Shown: one piece after another, positions 25,501-38,400 of the stretch
How the letters are laid out: each line of letters starts with the position of its first letter
How positions within the stretch are numbered: position 1 is the stretch's first letter
Assembly: GCF_009914755.1 (NCBI RefSeq)
Contig: NC_060940.1
DNA from: the human T2T-CHM13v2.0 reference genome, Homo sapiens
Strand: one strand, 5' to 3'
Length of the DNA: 64,000 bases
The notes under the pieces: generated by a model
Told to the model about the DNA's origin: nothing
Databases searched by the model: none
What the model saw: the letters and a program-made list of their open reading frames with translations, nothing else
Made by a program: the position numbers and the translations under genes

Positions 25501-27095
25501 GATAGCCAGCTGGCCCCAGGCATTCTAATAGGAGAGACCCCTGACTGACCCCAAGCAGTCTAATAATAGGGACACCTGCGTGACCCAGGCATTTTAATGG
25601 GAGAGACTCCCAGCTGATGCCAGATATTCTAATAAAATAGACTCCTGGCAGACCCCAGGCAGTCTAAGGACAGAGACATCTGGTCGACCCCAGACATTCT
25701 AAAGAAGAGACTCCCAACAGACCCCAGGCAGTCTAATAATAGAGAGAGCTGAGCGATGCCAGGCATTCTAATGAGACAGATTTCAGTGAGTCTAATTATA
25801 GAGACATATGAGCGACCCCAGTCATTCTAATGGGAGAAACTTTTGGCCTACCCAAGGCATTTTAATAGGAGAGACTCTGTGATGACCCTTCTATCTAATG
25901 ATAGAGGCAGCTTGGCAATCCCAGGCATTCCAATTGGAGAGAATTTTGGCTGACCACAGGCTTTCTAATGATAGAGACAGCTGTGAGACCTGAGGCATTT
26001 AACAGGGAGATATTCCTGGGTGATCCCAGTAAGTCTAATGATGGAGACACCTGGGAGACCCCAGGCATCAAAATGGGAGAGACTCTTAGCAAACCGCCGG
26101 CATTTTATTAATAGAAATAACTAGGCAAACCTAGGCATTCTAATGATAGAGACACCTAGATGACCCAAGGCATTCTAATGTGAGAGACTTTCAGGTGACC
26201 ACAGTCATTATAACGAAATAGAATCCTGACTGACCCTAGGCAGTCTAATGATAGAGACACCTGGACCACCCCAGGCATTTTAATAGGAGAGACTCTTGGC
26301 TGACCCCGGGAGTCTAATGATACAGACACCTGGGTGATCACAGACGTTTTAATGGGAGAGATTTTGGCTGACCCCAGGGAGTCTAATGATAGAGACATCT
26401 GGGTATACTAATGGAAGAGACTCCCCATCGACCCCAGGCATTCTAATAATAGAAAAACCTGGGCAACCCCAGGCATTCTAATGGGACATACTACTGGCCA
26501 ACACCAGGCATTCTACTAAGGCAAACTCCTGACCAACCATGGGCAGCCTAAGGATACAGACACCTGTGTGACCCCAGGCATTCTAATGAGAGAGACACCC
26601 AGTTGACACCAGGCATTGCAATGGGAGAGACTCCTGGCCAATCCCAAGCATTATAACTATAGAGACAACTGTGTAACACCAGGCATTCTAAGGAAAGAGA
26701 CTACTGGCCGACAACAGGCAGTCTAATAGTAGAGACACCTGGTCAACCTCAGGCATTCTAATAGAAGAAACTCCTGGCCAACCCCAGGCATTGTAATAGG
26801 GGAAACTCTTGGCCAAACACAGGCTAATAACAGAGACAACTGGGCAATGCCAGGCATTCTGTGGAGAGACACCTGGCTGACCCAAGGCATTCTATTGATA
26901 GAGACAGTAGGCATTTCAATGGGTGAGCCTCCCTGCCAACCCCAGGCAGTCTAAAGATACAGACACCTGGGTGACAGCAGGCATTCTAATGGCAGAGACG
27001 ACTGGCCAACCCCAGGCAGTCTAACAGTAGAGACACCTGGGTGATCACAGGCCTTCTAATGGGAAAGACTCCTGGCTGCCCCCAGGCATTCTAAT
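16568..27095. repeat. 35-bp satellite (HSAT4-type), block 1
   Basis: Loosely alternating 35-mers TCTAATGATAGAGACACCTGGGCGACCCCAGGCAT and TCTAATGGGAGAGACTCCTGGCCGACCCCAGGCAG, strongly diverged and CpG-decayed. Confidence 0.88.
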
Positions 27096-27360
27096 TCTTA
27101 TAGGTAAAATGTTTATTTAGAAACAGAATGCTTGTTTCTTGGGACTACAAAGAAAATTAACAGACAAAAAGTTTTCTCAGTAAGGTAATTTTACTTTCTG
27201 CAGAAAGGGTGCTCCTTGCAGATGGAAAAATGGTGAGAGCATCCTTTCTACAGAAAGTAAAACTGCCTTGCTGAGAAAACTTTTTGTCTGAATGTTAATT
27301 TTCCCTTGTGGTACCAATAAACAAGCATTCTGTTTCTAAATAGACATTGTACTTATAAAA
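27096..27360. repeat. Imperfect ~120-bp-arm inverted repeat made of LTR R-U5 (replaces the 5' LTR)
   Basis: 27096-27214 is the reverse complement of 27237-27360 (~11% mismatch). Both arms match the 3' LTR end at 35356-35476. Confidence 0.93.
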
Positions 27361-27363
27361 AAA

Positions 27364-27381
27364 TGGTGGCCTGTATAAGGA
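27364..27381 (+). promoter_or_regulatory. Primer-binding site, tRNA-Ile (degenerate)
   Basis: TGGTGGCCTGTATAAGGA vs TGGTGGCCCGTACGGGGA (14/18, mismatches mostly at CpGs). Confidence 0.8.
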
Positions 27382-28482
27382 TACATTCTCCTCTCAGAGA
27401 GGTCTCTGGTCCTCTCTCATGAGGAGGCACCCCATTGCCTCATTGCAGTGGCCTCAGGGTTAAGGAATTGAGAACCACTGGGTGTGACAAATAAACCTGA
27501 ACTCTCAGCAATGCAGAAAGAAACCGGCCAATGATCTGAAGTAAAGGATCCTCACATACCAACTGGACCAGGTAACCTCATGCATGAGACAAGGAAGGAA
27601 ACACTGGAGGAGCCAGTAAAGTATGTCCTTGGTGGTTGGGACTAAGGAAAGAAAAACCATGAGGTGATGAAGCATTCCTTGGTTAGGACATATCAAGGAA
27701 AGAGAAGCTGCAGGGGTGGTAAGGCATTCCTTATGACTAAGAAAAGAAAATCCATGGGGCGCAGGGAAGTGTTCCTTAGTCATGATGTCTTGGAAGTTCA
27801 TAAAGAGAGGTGAGAAGTCCCTATTGGGGAGGAGATTGAGACTTACACACACCTCCAGTAGTAGGAAAGATATTCAGAACTTCCCGTTCTTCTCTCCTTG
27901 AGGGAAGAAAGAGGTAGGATCCAGAGTATCTACCTTAGAAAATTGATAATAAAGGAGATTAAACAATCCATACCCCAAAACGAGGAGCTTACTCAAACAT
28001 TTAATATATAGCAAGGGAAAGACCAGAAGGAGAAGAAATGGAAACTGATATGGATGTTGCAGATGTGACTATTTAAAGGAGTTCAGGCTCATCCATCTCT
28101 GTGGAGCACAGGCTGGATGTTGAATTAAGGGCATCAGGTCCCAGTAGCACTAACATCTCTTCTGGCCCCAGCCCCAGTCCCAGTCCCGGTCCCAGCCCTG
28201 GTCCCCATCCTGGAGTCCAGTGTATTCCACAATGAGCAGCACTTCAGAAATCCATGTTGAATTTCCTCAAGCAGGCCTTCCAAGACCCTGGCATTTCATC
28301 AACCAGAAAAAGAATAAAAAAACTGTAGCCTCAATTCTTACCTCTTTAACAACTATAATAAGTTTACTCCTTCTTCTTAGGTGTTGTGTTATACCATACA
28401 CCCAGGAGTTAATCAAAACAACTAAGCCAAGAATTATTAAGACAGTTTGAAGATGAAAACTATACAATCAAAAGGGGGAAAT

Positions 28483-28583
28483 TGTAGAAAGTAAAAAGGT
28501 TCCTCTTAAAGTTTTCCTTCTTGTTAAATAATAAATCATAAGTGCTAGAAATAATAGTTTCTTTTAAAGACTAAATCCCTTCA
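28483..28583 (+). mobile_element. 3' LTR (LTR10-like), 5' part before the L1
   Basis: TGTAGAAAGTAAAAAG follows the PPT; the LTR continues after the L1 TSD. Confidence 0.8.
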
Positions 28584-29608
28584 GGGCATTTCCAAGATGG
28601 CCGAATAGGAACAGCTCCAGTCTACATCTCCCAGCATGAGCAACGCAGAAGACGGGTGATTTCTGCATTTCCAACTAAGGTACCAGGTTCATCTCACTGG
28701 GGCTTGTTGGACAGTAGGTGCAGGAAAGTGGGTGTAGTGCACTGAACATGAGCTGAAGCAGGGTGAGGCATCACCTCACCCAGGAAGAGCAAGGGGTCAG
28801 GGGATTCCATTTCCTAGCCAAGCAAAGCTGTGACAGATGGCACATGGAAAATTGGGTCACTCCCACCATAATACTGCAGTTTTCCAGTGGTCTTAGCAAA
28901 TGGCACAGCAGGAGATTATATCCCATGCCTGGCTCAGAGGGTCCCACACCCACTGAGCCTCACTCATTGCTAGCACAGCAGTCTGAGATTGAACTGCAAG
29001 GTAGCAGTGAGGCTGGGGGAGTGGTACCAGCCATTGCTGAGGCTTGAGTAGGTAAAAAAAGTGGCTGCGAAGTTCGAACTGGGTGGATCCCATGGCAGCT
29101 CAAGGAGGCCTGCCTGCCTCTGTAGACTCCACCTCTGGGGGCAGGACATAACTGAACAAAGGCAGCAGAAACCTCTGTAGACTTAAATGTCCCTGTCTGA
29201 CAGCTTTGAAGAGGGTAGTGGATCTCCTAGCAAGGAGTTTGAGATCTGAGAAAAGACAGACTCCCTCCTCAAATGGATCCCTGACCCCTGAGTAGCCTAT
29301 CTGGGAGGCATCCATCAGTAGGGGCAGACAGACACCTTACATGGCCAGGTACCCCTCTGAGATGAAACCTCCTGAGGAATAATCAGACAGCAACATTTGC
29401 TGTTCAGCAATATTTGCTGTTCTGCAGTCTCTGCTGCTGATACTCAGGCAAACAGGGTCTGGAGTGGAACTCCAGCAAACTCCAACAGACCTGCAGCTGA
29501 GGGTCCTGGCTGTTAGAAGGAAAACTAAGACACAGAAAGGACATCCACATCAAAATCCCATCTGTACGTCACCATCAGCAAAGAGAAAAGGTAGATAAAA
29601 CAACAAAG

Positions 29609-30626
29609 ATGGGAAAAAAAACAGAACAGAAAAACTGAAAATTCTAAAAATCAGAGCACCTCTCCTTCTCCAAAGGAACACAGCTCCTCACCAGCAATGG
29701 AATAAAGTTGGATGGAGAATGACTTTGACGAGATGAGCAAAGAAGGCTTCAGATGATCAAACTTCTCTGAGCTAAAGGAGGAAGTTCAAACCCATGGCAA
29801 AGAAGTTAAAAACCTTGAAAAAAATTTAGATGAATAGATAACTAGAATAACCAATGCAGAGAAATCCTTAAAGGACCTGATGGAGCTGAAAACCATGGAA
29901 TGAGAACCATGTGATGAAAGTACAAGCTTCAGTAGCTGATTTGATCAACTGGAAGAAAGGGTATCAGTGATGGAAGATCAAATGAATGAAATGAAGTGAG
30001 AAAAGAATTTTAGAGAAAAAAGAATAAAAAGAAACCAACAAAGCCTGCAGGAAATGTGGGACTATGTGAAAAGACCAAATCTACATCTAATTGGTGTACC
30101 TGAAAGTGACAGGGAGAATGGAATCAAGTTGGAAAACACTCTGCACGATATTACCCAGGAGAACTTCCACAACCTAGCAAGGCAGGCCAACATTCAAATT
30201 CAGGAAATACAGAGAATGCCACAAAGATACTCCTCGAGAAGAGCAACTCCAAGACACATAATTGTCAGATTCATCAAAGTTGAAATGAAGGAAAAAATGT
30301 TAAGGGCAGCCAGAGAGAAAGGTTGGGTTACCCACAAAGGCAAGCCTATCAGACTAACAGCTGATATCTTGGCACAAACTCTACAAGCCAGAAGACAGTG
30401 TGGGCTGACATTCAACATTCTTAAAGAAAAGAATTTTCAACACAGAATTTCATATCCAGCCAAAAGAAACTTCATAAGTAAAGGAGAAATAAAATCCTTT
30501 ACAGACAAGCAAATGCTGAGAGATTTTGTCACTGCCAGGCCTGCCCTACAAGAGCTCCTGAAAGAAGCACTAAACATGGAAAGGAACAACTGGTACCAGC
30601 CACTGCAAAAACATGCCAAATTGTAA
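29609..30626 (+). pseudogene. L1 ORF1p remnant
   Basis: ATG-GGK start, then a frameshift and stops. The C-terminal half reads WDYVKRPNL...YQPLQKHAKL. Confidence 0.9.
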
Positions 30627-30706
30627 AGGCATGTTTACATGCCTTTACATCAAGGCTAGGAAGAAACTGCATCAACTAATGATCAAAATAACCAGCTAAC
30701 ATCATA

Positions 30707-34554
<3,848 letters not shown>

Positions 34555-34747
34555 AAAATGAGAACACTTTGACACAGGAAGTGGAACATCACACACTGGT
34601 CCTGTCTTTGGGTGGGGGGAGGGGGAAGGGATAGCATTAGGAGATATACCTAATGTAAATGTTGAGTTAATGGGTGCAGCACACAAACATGGCACATGCA
34701 TACATATGTAACAAACCTGCACTTTGTGCACATGTACCCCAGAACTT

Positions 34748-34960
34748 AAAGTATTATATATACTAAAGTGTATATAGTATATATAAAGTATTATATATAC
34801 TATATATAATATATATAAAATATACTAAAGTATATATAATACTTTATATATATAAAGTATATATAAAGTATATATATAAAGTATATATATAAAGTATATA
34901 TATTAAAGTATTATATATACTAAAGTATTATATATATTTATATATATTATATATATAAAT
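34748..34960. repeat. (TA)n-rich low-complexity tail with repeated AAAGTAT units
   Basis: About 210 bp of almost pure A/T where the L1 poly(A) tail would be. Confidence 0.9.
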
Positions 34961-34977
34961 AAGACTAACTTCCTTCA

Positions 34978-35476
34978 AGCCTCGTCATTTTGTGCAAAAA
35001 ATTCTTTGTTAAGCCCTACCCTATGTAGCTGTTAGATGTCAGAGAATGAGTACATTCTATGTCCTTGTACTTTAACCAAGATATTTGTGCTGGGCATGCT
35101 CACAGGCACATCCCAGCTCGCAGCCTATGCCCCTTCTCTATTTGGCATAACTAACTTCCTCTTTTCCTTTGTTCTCCCTTGCCTTTACATAGTTAGGAAA
35201 GTATTAAATTATTAGCCAGTCAGGTTAGCTTAGAGTGTGTGGTCCGGCTTCAGCCAATGGAGACAGGACACATTAGCAGGGACAAGCTGTGTAAGGGATA
35301 AAAGTTGCTTCCCTCCTTTGTTCAGGTGTGCTCTTGCCATTGTTCCATCTGCGAGGAGCACCCTTTCTGCAAAAAGTAAAATTGGCTTGCTGAGAAAATT
35401 GTCTAAATGCTATTTTTTTCCTTGCAGTTCCTACTAACAAGCATTCTATTTCTGAATAAATATTTTACTTATAACA
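34978..35476 (+). mobile_element. 3' LTR (LTR10-like), remainder
   Basis: GATAAAA box at 35297, R hairpin at 35328-35361, AGTAAA at 35375-35380, end ACTTATAACA. Confidence 0.8.
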
Positions 35477-38400
35477 CTAATGATAGAGACAACTGGATGA
35501 CTCCAGTCATATTAATGAGAGGACTCCAGACCAACACCAGGAATTCTAGCGTAAGAATTCTAATGTAAGTCACTCCTGGCTGACCCCAAGCAGTCTAATA
35601 ATAGAGACACATGGGAGACCCCAGGCATTCTAATGGGAGAGACTCCTAGCTAAACCCAGGCAATCTAATAATAGAGACATCCGAGTGATCCCAGGCATTC
35701 TAGTGGGTGAGATTCTTGGCTGACCACAGGCATACTAATGATAGAGACAACTGTGTGACCCTAGGCATTATAATGGAAGAGACTCCCAGCCAACCCCAGG
35801 CTGTCTAATAATAAAGACACCTGGGCGACTCCAGGCATTCTAATGGGAGTGGCTCTCAGCCAACCTTAAGCATTCTTATAGTAGAGACACCTGGGCAACT
35901 CCAGGAATTCTAATGATAGAGACCCCTGTGTGATCCCTGGCATTTTAGTGGGACAGACTCCCGGCTGTCCCAGGCATTCTAATGGGAGACACTCCTGGCC
36001 AACCCCAAGCACTCTAAGGATTGAGACAACTGAGCAACCTCAGGCATTCTATTGGGAGAGATTCCTGGCTGACACAAGGCAGTCTAATTATAGAGACATT
36101 TGGGAGACCTTAGGCATTTTAATGGGAGAGACTCCCGGCCAACCCCATGCAGTCTAATAATAGAGACACCTCAGTGACCCCAGGCATTCTAATGGGAGAG
36201 ACTCCTAGCTGAACCCAGCCAATCTCATAATAGAGACACCTGAGCAATCCCAGGCATTATAATGGGTGAGACTCTCGGCCGACCCCGGGCATACTAATGA
36301 TAGAGACACCTTGGCGACCCCAGCCATTATAATGGAAGAGCATTCTGGTTGCCCCAGGTGGTCTAATAATAAAGACACACGGGGGACTCCAGGCATTCTA
36401 ATGGGAGTGGCTCTCAGCTGATCTTAAGCATTATTATGGTAGAGACACCTGGGAAACTCTGGGAATTCTAATGATAAAGACACCTGGGTGACCCCTGGCA
36501 TTTTAATGGGAGAGATTCCAGGCTGTCCCCAGGCATTCTAATGGGAGAGACTCCTGGCCAACCCCAGGCACTCTAAGAATAGAGACATCTGAGTGACCCC
36601 AGGCATTCTAATGGGAAGGACTCCCATTAGAATTTTTTCCTGACACAAGGCAGTCTAATTATAGAGACATCTGGGAGACCTTAGGCATTCTAATGGGAAA
36701 CACTCCTGGCTGACACAGGGCATTCTAATGATAAAGAAACCTGGGTGGTTCCAGGCCTTTTAATTGGAGAGATTTCCAACTGACCCCAGACATTCTAATA
36801 AGAGAAACTTTTGGCCAATGCCAGGCAGTCTAAAAATAGAGACACCTGGGCATTCTGATGGGAGAGACTCACTGCCAACCCCAGGAATTCTAATGAAGAG
36901 ACTCCTGGACCATCCCAGGAAGTCTAATGATAGAGAAACCTGGGCAACCTCAGGCATTTTAATGTCAGAGATTCCGGTCTACCCCAGGCAGTCTAATGAT
37001 AGAGACATTAGGCATTGCAATGAGAGAGACTCCCAGATGACCCAAATAATTCTAATTACAGAGACACCTGGGCATCCACAGGCATTTTAATGTGAGAGGC
37101 TCCTGGCTGAACCAAGGCAGTCTAATGATAGAGACACCTGGGCAACCCCAGGCATTCTATTAAGAGAGATTCCTGAAAGACCCCAGGCATTCTAATGATA
37201 CAGACATCTGGGAGAACCTAAGCATTCTAATGGGAGAGATTCCAGGCCGATGCCAGGCATTATAATGGAGACACTCCTGGCAAACCCCAGACAATCTAAT
37301 GTTAGAGACACCTGGGTGACCCCAGGCATTCTAATGGGAGAAACACTCGGCTGACCACAGGCATTCCAATGTTAGAGAAACATGGGGGACCCCAGGCATT
37401 TTAAAGGGAGAGATTCCTGGCTCACCCCAGGCATTCTAATGGGAGAGATTCCTGGTTGACCCCAGGCAGTCTAATTATAGAGACACCAGAATGATCTTAG
37501 GCATTCAAATTTGAGAGACTCCCGGCAGACCACACGCAGAGTAATGATAAAAATAACTGGGTGACTGAAGGCATTCTAAAGGGAGACACTTTTGTCCATC
37601 TCCAGGTATTCTAATGGGAGAGACACCTGGCTGAACAGAGGCAGTCTAATGATAGAGATATCTGGGCCACCCCAGGCATTTTAATGGAAGAAACTCCTAG
37701 ATGACCATAAGCAGTCCAATTAAAGAGAGAACTGGGCGACTCCAGGCATTCTAATAGAAGAGACTCCCTCCGACCCCAGACAGTCTAAGGATAGAGACAC
37801 CTGGGTGACTCCAGGCATTCTAATGGGAGAGACTCCTGCCCAACCCCATGCAGTTTAATTGTAGAGACACCTGAACGACCCCAGGCCTTCTAATAGGAGA
37901 GACTCCTGACTGACCCCAGGCAGTCTAATGATAGAGACACCCTGGGTGAACCCAAACTTTCTAATGGTAGAGACACCCCACAAACCCCAGTTGGTTTGAT
38001 GATAAAGACATCAGGCGAACCAAAGCATTCTAATGGGAGAGACTCCTGGCAGACCCCAGGCATTCTAATGATAGAGACACAAGGGAGTCCCCAGGCATTC
38101 TAATAAAAGGGACTCCAGGCCGACACCAGGCATTCAAATAATAGAAATACCTTGGTGACCCCAGGCATTTTAATGGGAGAGACTCCTGGCCAACCCAGGC
38201 ATTCTCATGATAGAGACCCCTGGCCAAACCCAGGCATTAGAATGATAAAGACATCTGGGTGACCTCAGTCATTCTAATGGGAGAAACTCCCAACTGACAC
38301 CAGTCAGTCTAAAAATAGAGACACCTGGGTGACCCCAGGCATTCTAATGACAGAGACGCCTGACTGACCCCTGGCATTCTAATAATACAGACATAGGGGC

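What the first reader, a model, noticed from the sequence alone, without database searches (positions are those of the whole stretch)
27091..35481. Provirus with U5 at both ends: possible germline fossil of self-primed strong-stop DNA
Seen: there is no U3 at the left end. The top strand reads revcomp(R-U5) (27096-27241), turns at GAGCA, then runs R'-U5 (27237-27360), PBS, internal region, PPT and a complete U3-R-U5. The left terminus TCTTATAGGTAAAATG is the reverse complement of the right terminus CATTTTACTTATAACA (2 mismatches). A perfect CTAAT duplication flanks the whole element. The turn maps to a hairpin GTGCTC...GAGCAC (35328-35361 in the intact LTR) starting 31 nt after the GATAAAA box, i.e. 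at the predicted start of R. Known: minus-strand strong-stop DNA can fold back on a 5' R hairpin and self-prime (shown in vitro for HIV-1 TAR and suppressed by nucleocapsid). Inference: such a product (u5-r-R'-U5-PBS) performed the second strand transfer in place of plus strong-stop DNA, and integrase inserted a U5/U5-ended DNA. This would be an in vivo record of a supposed dead-end product, and it would also map the ancient transcription start.
Basis: partly seen in the sequence, partly recalled or inferred. Interest (0 to 1): 0.9.

Follow-up and report, generated by a model that had tools for sequence, protein, structure and literature searches.

The report
Fold-back provirus with two U5 ends
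An ancient endogenous retrovirus on chromosome 16 has its left repeat replaced by a snapped-back copy of its first reverse-transcription product, and five more such insertions in the same genome suggest that this supposed dead-end product was repeatedly completed and integrated in the germ line.

Summary
Window 27096-27236 is the reverse complement of R-U5. It turns at a hairpin (stem 27209-14 / 27237-42) into a sense R'-U5 (to 27360), followed by the PBS (27364-81). No U3 lies at the left end, and CTAAT flanks both ends.

- The "internal region" is mostly a full-length L1 (28584-34960) inserted into U3 of the 3' LTR. That LTR is therefore split (28483-28583 and 34961-35476).
- The retroviral interior is only about 1.1 kb.

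New result: the same junction occurs at five other places in this genome.
- Two have perfect 5-bp target duplications in non-satellite flanks (chr1 CCTAT, chr4 GTGAC).
- Two are "solo" forms (u5-r-R'-U5 only).
- One is truncated.

Normal LTRs of the family also make 5-bp duplications. The cDNA 3' end folds into a hairpin with a paired 3' terminus in 24 of 32 copies.

Fold-back arms are scattered among normal LTRs in a tree. In the window the three R-U5 copies carry 6, 7 and 7-9 private changes, so they look equally old.

Best reading (about 0.8): self-primed minus strong-stop DNA served as the plus-strand donor, and integrase inserted a U5/U5-ended DNA. Six literature searches (five on the structure itself) found no description of this.

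The parts
27091..27095 (.). Left copy of the 5-bp target-site duplication (CTAAT)
   Evidence: The satellite phase is kept across the element. The chance of a 5/5 match in this satellite is 0.55%.
27096..27236 (-). Inverted arm: reverse complement of U5 and R, including the hairpin's 5' stem arm (27209-14) and its loop (27215-36). It begins with the U5 terminus, TCTTATAGG, where TGTTATAAG is expected.
   Evidence: 118 of 144 positions identical to R-U5 of the 3' LTR when read in sense.
27237..27360 (+). Sense R'-U5. It starts with the hairpin's 3' stem arm (GAGCAT, 27237-42) and lacks the first 28 nt of R.
   Evidence: 98 of 118 identical to the 3' LTR and 105 of 117 identical to the inverted arm.
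27364..27381 (+). Primer binding site TGGTGGCCTGTATAAGGA, 3 nt after U5
   Evidence: The same site is present in the chr1 fold-back element and in the normal proviruses L024 and L065. Calling it Ile-type rests on recall and was not tested.
27382..28469 (+). Remnant retroviral interior (about 1.1 kb): leader plus 3' end, with no gag, pol or env domain
   Evidence: the leader is collinear with chr1a and with the normal provirus L024; the two open frames tested in this stretch (28154-28450 and 28757-29047, the second running into the L1) gave no Pfam hit.
28470..28481 (+). Polypurine tract AAAAGGGGGAAA
   Evidence: The same position precedes other 3' LTRs of the family (L008, L009, L017).
28483..28583 (+). 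3' LTR, part 1: the first 101 nt of U3, starting TGTAGAAAG
28584..34960 (+). Secondary full-length L1 insertion with an A/T-rich tail. It is not part of the provirus. Its 17-bp target duplication lies at 28567-83 / 34961-77.
   Evidence: Pfam L1 ORF1 domains at 30000-30626, endonuclease at 30692-30937, RT at 32263-33350. Searches give the boundaries.
34961..35476 (+). 3' LTR, part 2: the rest of U3, then R and U5. TATA-like GATAAAA at 35297-303. R hairpin GTGCTC...GAGCAC at 35328-61. AATAAA about 23 nt before the end.
35477..35481 (.). Right copy of the target-site duplication (CTAAT)

Best explanation
This is a fossil provirus of an LTR10-type class I endogenous retrovirus, and its left end was built from self-primed minus-strand strong-stop DNA.

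**Proposed sequence of events (inferred)**
1. One of the two packaged RNAs gave a strong-stop cDNA (tRNA-u5-r).
2. The 3' end of that cDNA is the complement of a stem-loop at the very start of R. It snapped back on itself.
3. Reverse transcriptase extended it over its own r, u5 and the first 18 nt of the tRNA. The product was u5-r-loop-R'-U5-PBS.
4. That 3' PBS is what normal plus-strand strong-stop DNA carries. The product could therefore make the second strand transfer onto a full minus strand made from the other RNA.
5. Completing both strands gives a linear DNA with a U5 terminus at both ends.
6. The family's U3 and U5 tips are nearly the same inverted repeat, so integrase inserted it with the usual 5-bp duplication.

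**Later changes at this locus (shown)**
- An L1 landed in U3 of the 3' LTR.
- Most of the interior is missing. When it was lost is not known.

**What is shown and what is inferred**
- Shown: the structure, its recurrence at six loci, the target duplications and the foldability of the hairpin.
- Inferred: the two-cDNA pathway, and that the turn marks the RNA 5' end (the transcription start) to within the 6-bp stem.
For: **1. Structure at this locus.** The order is TSD, exact U5 end, r, loop, R', U5, PBS.

**2. Recurrence.** Six loci were found in this genome.
- The window.
- C1:243.99M: full structure, PBS present, TSD CCTAT/CCTAT, left end TGTTATAAG.
- C4:172.45M: TSD GTGAC/GTGAC.
- CX:69.76M and C1:67.84M: solo forms consisting of u5-r-R'-U5 only. 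This is what recombination between R'-U5 and the 3' LTR would leave.
- C4:67.76M: truncated.
- Five of the six share the junction ..AGAGCAC|CCTTTCT.

**3. Junction scan.** The junction pattern with up to 2 mismatches gave 89 hits, against 25 for the reversed control. All 89 were screened. Only these loci are fold-backs, and all 4 exact matches are fold-backs.

**4. Target duplication length.** Normal solo LTRs of the family have 5-bp TSDs: 4 of 8 perfect, 3 of 8 at 4/5, 1 of 8 with none.

**5. Hairpin.**
- The cDNA 3' end folds with its last base paired in 24 of 32 copies. The best value is -8.8 kcal/mol: a 10-bp stem, a 1-nt bulge and a 13-nt loop.
- A sister subfamily reads GTACTC..GAGTAC, a change on both sides that keeps the pair.
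- A third subfamily keeps the stem with an unrelated loop.
- The TATA-like box lies 31 nt upstream, with similar spacing in the third subfamily.

**6. Age in the window.** Private changes are A 6, B 7, C 7-9, with 1 shared A=B derived change.

**7. Not one clade.**
- Fold-back arms need 9 label changes on the tree. Starred branches force at least 3.
- C1:67.84M sits in a separate 100/99 clade.
- The window's leader is as close to a normal provirus (C6:159.98M, 83%) as to the chr1 fold-back (82%).
- The interiors of the window and chr1 elements are deleted differently.

**8. [quoted passage not shown]
Against: **Divergence at the chr1 locus.**
- The left arms differ at 6 of 128 sites, against 22 of 147 and 17 of 124 versus the 3' LTR (p = 0.005 and 0.016).
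- They share 4 derived changes.
- This needs arm-to-arm gene conversion, a virion with two different RNAs, or a later origin of the palindrome.
- The window shows the same trend in raw pairwise terms (12/117 against 26/144 and 20/118), but it is not significant.

**Left terminus.** In the window and at CX the left terminus reads TC, not the TG that integrase requires. This must be later mutation at the same base twice.

**Imperfect target duplications.**
- At CX the flanks share only AGAA, and a 5-bp TSD needs an indel.
- At C1:67.84M the match is 4/5.

**Weak hairpin in decayed copies.** In the window's own decayed LTR the hairpin is weak: -5.7 kcal/mol, z = -0.5 against shuffles.

**Weak TSD evidence in the window.** The window's TSD lies in a satellite that repeats the motif.

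**Untested points.**
- No orthologue or empty site could be examined.
- The transcription start is not independently mapped.
Confidence: 0.8

Rival explanations
1. Rearrangement after integration. A normal 5' LTR, or a solo LTR, was remodelled at the DNA level. Replication template switching or fold-back repair at the R hairpin replaced U3 with an inverted copy of R-U5.
For: - The R hairpin is a natural fold-back site.
- At chr1 the two left arms are younger-looking than the LTR pair and share 4 derived changes.
- DNA-level fold-back inverted duplications are known in human genomes (PMC3907307, search listing and abstract only).
Against: - It gives no reason for the inverted arm to stop exactly at the U5 tip, flush with an intact 5-bp TSD.
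- It gives no reason for all of U3 (about 450 nt) to be removed each time. Yet five loci share the junction, and the arm ends at the U5 tip in the window, chr1a, chr4a and C1:67.84M.
- In the window the three copies look equally old.
Confidence: 0.08
2. A transmissible fold-back lineage. The structure arose once, or once per subfamily, and was then copied to new sites by retrotransposition of a fold-back template.
For: - Within the main clade the R-U5 tree is an unresolved star, so a single origin for four of the loci is not excluded.
- The window and CX share the odd TC at the left tip.
- All three loci that keep a 3' LTR are internally deleted.
- Two of 14 proviral 5' ends nearest to the window's leader are fold-backs, which is a high share.
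Against: - No U3 promoter lies upstream of R'. An RNA starting at R could not be made, and a read-through RNA would not regenerate the exact U5 tip.
- The loci fall in two well-supported clades (100/99).
- The window's leader is as close to a normal provirus as to the other fold-back.
- The internal deletions differ.
- The high share among surviving 5' ends is expected anyway. Fold-back proviruses have only about 125 bp of direct repeat for solo formation, against about 600 bp in normal proviruses.
Confidence: 0.07
3. Two separate insertions. An antisense LTR and a sense provirus landed side by side and were later joined by a deletion.
For: Nested and adjacent retroelement insertions are common. 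This very element carries an L1.
Against: - The junction would have to fall at the same base pair of the same hairpin at five loci.
- The outer flanks would not form matching 5-bp duplications, yet chr1 CCTAT, chr4 GTGAC and the window CTAAT all match.
- The inverted arm belongs to the same subfamily as the sense copies.
Confidence: 0.02

Closest known systems
Self-priming of HIV-1 minus-strand strong-stop DNA at the cTAR hairpin (Guo et al. 1997; Driscoll and Hughes 2000). I saw these only as cited in passages of the review PMC6088434 and of PMC4668388.
   Same: The 3' end of (-)ssDNA is the complement of a stem-loop at the start of R. It folds back and is extended over r and u5. The product has the same strand order as the window's left end.
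   Different: - It is known from reconstituted reactions and is described as a dead end for first strand transfer. It is reported as not detected in endogenous HIV-1 reactions.
- Here the product appears completed, integrated and inherited, at six loci of a class I endogenous retrovirus.
- Its use as donor for the second transfer is my inference and is not something I found in print.
HIV-1 proviruses with asymmetric LTRs (Joseph et al. 2022, PMC9278108; passages seen).
   Same: These are integrated proviruses whose two ends differ because reverse transcription used intermediates from both packaged RNAs.
   Different: In those proviruses one LTR carries a deletion. No inverted R-U5 and no U5/U5 ends are described in the passages I saw.
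L1 5' inversion by twin priming (recalled, not looked up here).
   Same: An inverted 5' segment is made during reverse transcription, inside one target-site duplication.
   Different: - That is target-primed non-LTR retrotransposition.
- The inversion junction is variable.
- It involves no hairpin at the RNA 5' end and no integrase.
Large DNA-level fold-back inverted duplications (Hermetz et al. 2014, PMC3907307; abstract only).
   Same: Inverted arms separated by a short spacer, formed by a 3' end folding back.
   Different: Those are chromosome-scale, tied to breaks and terminal deletions, and are not bounded by a transposon tip and a target duplication.

Membership tests
   The 3' LTR runs TGTAG...AACA. 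A 5-bp CTAAT lies at both ends. Normal solo LTRs of the family have 5-bp TSDs.
   PBS at 27364-81. PPT at 28470-81, directly before the LTR start.
   The left end has no U3. It consists of an inverted R-U5 followed by a sense R'-U5.
   Of 14 open frames scanned, the only Pfam hits are L1 ORF1, endonuclease and RT from the inserted L1, plus one sub-threshold hit. The retroviral interior is about 1.1 kb.
   No Dfam or Repbase library is held here. The Ile reading of the PBS is recalled. Within-locus LTR divergence of 14-18% fits the 10-19% that PMC4724089 gives for HERVIP (passage seen).
Self-primed minus-strand strong-stop DNA product | The 3' end of the cDNA forms a hairpin with a paired 3' terminus and a 5' template overhang | tested here: met
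   24 of 32 copies fold this way, the best at -8.8 kcal/mol. The window's own decayed copy gives -5.7 kcal/mol with z = -0.5.
Self-primed minus-strand strong-stop DNA product | Strand order u5-r-loop-R'-U5, with the loop present once and nothing 5' of R | tested here: met
   The same junction is present at four further loci.
Self-primed minus-strand strong-stop DNA product | The outer end is the tRNA/U5 boundary, that is, the 5' end of strong-stop DNA | tested here: met
   The left tip is the reverse complement of the U5 tip and abuts the TSD in the window, chr1a, chr4a and C1:67.84M.
Self-primed minus-strand strong-stop DNA product | Made by reverse transcriptase inside the particle and held down by nucleocapsid | not testable with these tools
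   This needs biochemistry.
DNA-level fold-back inverted duplication | Arm lengths and junctions vary between events, and the event is tied to a break or a deletion of neighbouring DNA | tested here: not met
   The junction is identical at five loci. In the four loci listed above the arm stops at the U5 tip. The flanks are intact with a TSD.

The most novel reading that the evidence does not exclude
Self-primed strong-stop DNA is not a dead end in vivo. In this retroviral family it was repeatedly rescued through the second strand transfer, and it created a heritable class of U5/U5 "fold-back proviruses" and their solo derivatives. If the same class exists in other endogenous retroviruses, each member would record the 5' end of an extinct virus's genomic RNA at near base resolution. 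The frequency of such members would measure how well ancient nucleocapsids suppressed self-priming.
Probability: 0.45. Interest if true: 0.85.

Novelty: new variant of a known kind. Interest (0 to 1): 0.75.

Why it matters
**In vivo evidence for a test-tube reaction.** Self-priming of strong-stop DNA has been treated as a side reaction that nucleocapsid prevents. The review passages I read call its products dead ends. Six germ-line insertions with exact U5 tips, family-typical target duplications and one shared hairpin junction would be in vivo evidence for three things:
- the product forms inside particles;
- it can substitute for plus-strand strong-stop DNA;
- integrase accepts two U5 ends.

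**A sequence-only mark of the start of R.** The structure gives a way to place the start of R, and hence the transcription start, in an extinct virus from sequence alone.

**Practical consequences.**
- These elements are near-perfect 125-bp palindromes. They are prone to deletion and could form double-stranded RNA if transcribed.
- Repeat annotation will split them into an antisense and a sense LTR fragment, so they are easy to overlook.

Tried and rejected
- **Rfam on 26900-27600.** Only generic microRNA-hairpin matches, all far below the gathering scores (best 32 bits against 68). It is not a known RNA gene.
- **Pfam on open frames.** Of 14 open frames between 28154 and 34398, no retroviral domain was found. 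The hits belong to the L1.
- **Junction pattern, false positives.**
  - L038 and L039 (1 mismatch) are unrelated DNA.
  - L084, L085, L115 and L119 are normal LTRs of a sister subfamily.
- **Loci whose match starts exactly at R'.** C3:132.66M, C19:52.37M and C4:6.03M looked like possible one-armed remnants. They are normal LTRs of a third subfamily with a different loop.
- **Sister subfamily screen.** 0 of 40 scored loci (of 678 candidates) show paired opposite-strand hits.
- **Search depth.** The BLAST-type searches score only 40 candidates each (40 of 325, 742, 716 and 678). Six loci is therefore a lower bound.
- **Microhomology idea.** I considered that a TGTTA microhomology between the U3 start and the inverted U5 could explain a DNA-level event. 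This rested on a wrong LTR start. The LTR begins TGTAGAAAG.
- **Literature.**
  - Five searches aimed at the structure found no description of U5/U5 or fold-back proviruses.
  - One search and one review, aimed at the PBS type, gave nothing useful.
  - Subscription papers of the 1980s-90s on aberrant retroviral DNA are not in the library. Prior description cannot be excluded.
- **PBS tRNA identity.** Left untested, because it would have needed sequence from memory.

Full report
**1. The observation**

The left end of the element reads as the finding says.
- After the satellite flank and CTAAT (27091-95), the top strand is the reverse complement of the end of the 3' LTR, starting at its very tip.
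- It runs back through R to the hairpin at 27209-42.
- It then runs forward again as R'-U5 to 27360.
- Three A's follow, and then a PBS (27364-81).

The repeat finder gives two inverted pairs: 62 nt at 85% and 54 nt at 91%, with 22 nt between the inner arms. The self-versus-reverse-complement score is 280, against a maximum of 48 in 500 shuffles.

| Comparison | Identical |
|---|---|
| Inverted arm (A) vs 3' LTR (C), from GTGCTC at 35328 to the LTR end | 118 of 144 |
| Sense arm (B) vs C, from GAGCAC onwards | 98 of 118 |
| A vs B | 105 of 117 |

No U3 base is present at the left. The LTR ends at 35476 and CTAAT follows.

**2. Corrections to the anatomy**

- Comparison of twelve loci shows that the family's LTR starts TGTAGAAAGTAAAAAG. 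In proviruses a purine tract precedes it.
- In the window that PPT is at 28470-81, and the first 101 nt of U3 are at 28483-28583.
- A full-length L1 follows. Pfam finds ORF1 domains at 30000-30626, endonuclease at 30692-30937 and RT at 32263-33350.
- The L1 ends in an A/T-rich tail, and the LTR resumes at 34961.
- The 17 nt at 28567-83 and 34961-77 are the L1's target duplication. The chr1 element aligns to both pieces with a 17-nt overlap.
- The provirus proper is therefore about 2 kb, with a 1.1-kb interior and no gag, pol or env.

**3. The flank**

- The flank is a 35-bp satellite in which TCTAAT begins each unit. A CTAAT on both sides is therefore weaker evidence than in unique DNA.
- Even so, only 0.55% of cut pairs in this satellite give a 5/5 match, and the unit phase is kept across the element.

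**4. The structure recurs**

I searched the window's own assembly with the turn region, with a second fold-back, and with the junction as a pattern. These gave six loci.

| Locus | Form | Flanks and junction |
|---|---|---|
| Window (chr16) | Left end, 1.1-kb interior, 3' LTR | CTAAT / CTAAT |
| C1:243.99M (chr1a) | Left end TGTTATAAG, inverted arm, sense arm, PBS, about 1.9 kb of interior, 3' LTR | CCTAT / CCTAT; junction ..GAGAGCAC\|CCTTTCTGCAG |
| C4:172.45M (chr4a) | Inverted arm (about 20 nt lost near its tip), same junction, 7 nt of R', 17 nt of unknown origin, 8-nt partial repeat of the LTR start, full LTR | GTGAC / GTGAC |
| CX:69.76M | u5-r-R'-U5 only | AGAA on both sides; the turn is altered |
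| C1:67.84M (c1b) | u5-r-R'-U5 only, from a more diverged subfamily | 4/5 duplication; same junction |
| C4:67.76M | Inverted arm, turn and about 8 nt of R', then unrelated DNA | not readable |

- The two forms without interior are what recombination between the sense R'-U5 and the 3' LTR would leave. They are the analogue of solo LTRs.
- The pattern gave 89 hits at up to 2 mismatches, against 25 for the reversed control. I screened all 89.
- All 4 exact matches are fold-backs. Beyond these, only C4:67.76M and a second hit within the chr4 locus were real.
- Four other hits are normal LTRs of a sister subfamily.

**5. Is the target duplication the family's own?**

I read eight apparent solo LTRs.

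| 5-bp duplication | Loci |
|---|---|
| Perfect (4) | L002 ACTGT, L007 TTGAG, L010 TTGGG, L018 CCAAG |
| 4 of 5 (3) | L005, L006, L013 |
| None (1) | L014 |

The fold-back elements were therefore inserted by the same kind of integration. The U3 tip (TGTAGAAAGTAAAA) and the inverted U5 tip (TGTTATAAGTAAAA) are nearly the same. Two U5 ends should thus look like a normal pair of ends to the integrase. That last step is inference.

**6. The hairpin**

- I folded the reverse complement of the first 46 nt of R as DNA. The 3'-terminal base is paired in 24 of 32 copies.
- Copies that keep their CpGs give a 10-bp stem with one bulge and a 13-nt loop at -8.8 kcal/mol.
- The window's own decayed LTR gives only -5.7 kcal/mol, no better than shuffles.
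- A sister subfamily has GTACTC...GAGTAC, a change on both sides that keeps the pair.
- A third subfamily keeps the GTGCT/AGCAC stem with an unrelated loop, and its TATA-like box is similarly spaced.
- A stem-loop at the first bases of R therefore looks like a kept feature of the family. It is exactly where the fold-back turns.
- The stem is common to both arms, so the end of the cDNA is placed only to within those 6 bp.

**7. Ages**

Window, in columns where all three copies are present, polarised against 25 normal R-U5 segments:

| Class of change | Count |
|---|---|
| Private to A | 6 |
| Private to B | 7 |
| Private to C | 7, plus 2 unpolarised |
| All three differ | 3 |
| Derived and shared by A and B | 1 |

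The three copies look equally old, as the model requires.

At chr1 the picture differs.
- A has 4 private changes, B has 2 and C has 11. Four derived changes are shared by A and B.
- A and B differ at 6 of 128 sites, against 22 of 147 and 17 of 124 versus C (p = 0.005 and 0.016).
- Counting shared changes, the totals are 8, 6 and 11, which are not clearly unequal.
- I read this as gene conversion between the arms of a tight palindrome. A virion with two different RNAs, or a later origin of the palindrome, is not excluded.

Within-locus divergence is 14-18%, and 7% at chr4. This fits the 10-19% and 30-40 million years given for HERVIP, whose LTR that paper calls LTR10 (PMC4724089, passages seen).

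**8. One lineage or many events?**

- On a tree of 37 R-U5 segments the fold-back label needs 9 changes. Well-supported branches force at least 3.
- C1:67.84M lies in a separate clade with 100/99 support, among normal LTRs.
- The main clade is an unresolved star, so the tree alone cannot show that the other loci are independent.
- Against a copied lineage:
  - there is no promoter upstream of R';
  - the window's leader is as close to a normal provirus (83%) as to the chr1 fold-back (82%) (the normal state of that locus comes);
  - the interiors of the window and chr1 elements are deleted at different points.

I then looked at the 14 proviral 5' ends whose match to the window's U5-PBS-leader starts within 9 nt of the query start. 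The other 26 of the 40 rows started later and were left out.

| State of the 5' end | Count |
|---|---|
| Fold-back | 2 |
| Single sense R-U5, no inverted arm | 11 |
| No LTR match | 1 |

The high share of fold-backs is expected if such proviruses convert to solo forms less readily, because they have about 125 bp of direct repeat instead of about 600 bp. That is inference.

**9. Mechanism**

- The strand order u5-r-loop-R'-U5-PBS is that of (-) strong-stop DNA that has primed on itself and copied back to the tRNA. This is the reaction described for HIV-1 cTAR in vitro (PMC6088434, passages; PMC4668388, passages).
- Its 3' PBS can pair with the 3' end of a full minus strand. That minus strand must come from the second packaged RNA, because the self-primed cDNA can no longer make the first transfer.
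- Extension of both strands gives U5 tips at both ends and a normal right LTR, which is what is seen.
- The use of intermediates from both RNAs has a precedent in the model proposed for asymmetric HIV-1 LTRs (PMC9278108, passages).
- A variant I cannot exclude is that reverse transcriptase copied back at the hairpin before reaching the RNA's end. In that case the turn would not mark the transcription start.

**10. Novelty**

- Five full-text searches aimed at the structure found no report of proviruses with two U5 ends or of integrated self-primed products. A sixth search was aimed at the PBS type.
- The library lacks most subscription papers, so this is not proof of absence.
- I rate the finding a new variant of a known kind: an aberrant provirus class explained by a known side reaction.

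**11. Not done**

- Primate orthologues and empty sites. No such genomes are held here.
- Comparison with the LTR10 reference. No repeat library is held here.
- The tRNA identity of the PBS.
- Independent mapping of the transcription start.

Noticed in passing
window 28584-34960: A full-length L1 on the + strand lies inside U3 of the 3' LTR. Its 17-bp target duplication is at 28567-83 / 34961-77. Its tail has grown into about 350 nt of A/T-rich repeat (about 34600-34960), which contains small inverted repeats of its own (I5 and I6).
   Followed up: partly
window 26500-27095 and 35477-36000: The provirus sits in a 35-bp satellite whose units begin TCTAAT. The hub's table lists 5S rRNA pseudogenes elsewhere in the window. 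I did not look at how they relate to this satellite.
   Followed up: no
window 27096-27097; L032 about 9602 (CX:69.76M): Both of these fold-back elements begin TC instead of the TG that the integrated end should have. The other four begin TG. The same base is changed twice, and I have no explanation.
   Followed up: no
L032 9445-9465 (CX:69.76M): At this locus the turn is rebuilt. The last 11 nt of the expected inverted arm are replaced by 11 other bases. These extend the internal CTGCAG palindrome of R into a 28-nt perfect palindrome. This may be secondary repair of the palindrome centre.
   Followed up: no
L004 2100-2145 (C4:172.45M) and L058 about 1500 (C4:67.76M): In both loci the sense arm stops 7-8 nt after the turn, just before the CTGCAG palindrome. 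At C4:172.45M a full LTR follows after 17 unassigned bases and an 8-nt repeat of the LTR start. This could be palindrome-driven deletion. It could also mean that a barely extended fold-back cDNA primed plus-strand synthesis at the U3 border. Neither was tested.
   Followed up: no
LTR ends in window 35454-35476 and loci L002-L030: The AATAAA found in most copies (34 of the 37 segments listed carry an AATAAA or ATTAAA somewhere, most often here) starts only 22-23 nt before the LTR end. U5 must therefore be very short, and almost the whole 150-nt "R-U5" arm is R.
   Followed up: partly
L085 44-80; L115; L130-L132: Three LTR subfamilies keep a stem-loop at the start of R. One has a compensatory stem change (GTACTC/GAGTAC), and another has an unrelated loop. 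In the third subfamily the TATA-like box is similarly spaced.
   Followed up: partly
L010, L011, L012 (three places on C1: 145.99M, 145.46M, 120.19M): Three nearly identical copies of one solo LTR have identical flanks. They presumably lie in a segmental duplication.
   Followed up: no
G000:C16:38528457-38528785 (about 150 kb after the window start, outside the window): Another leader of the same retroviral group (72% identical) lies in the same pericentromeric region.
   Followed up: no
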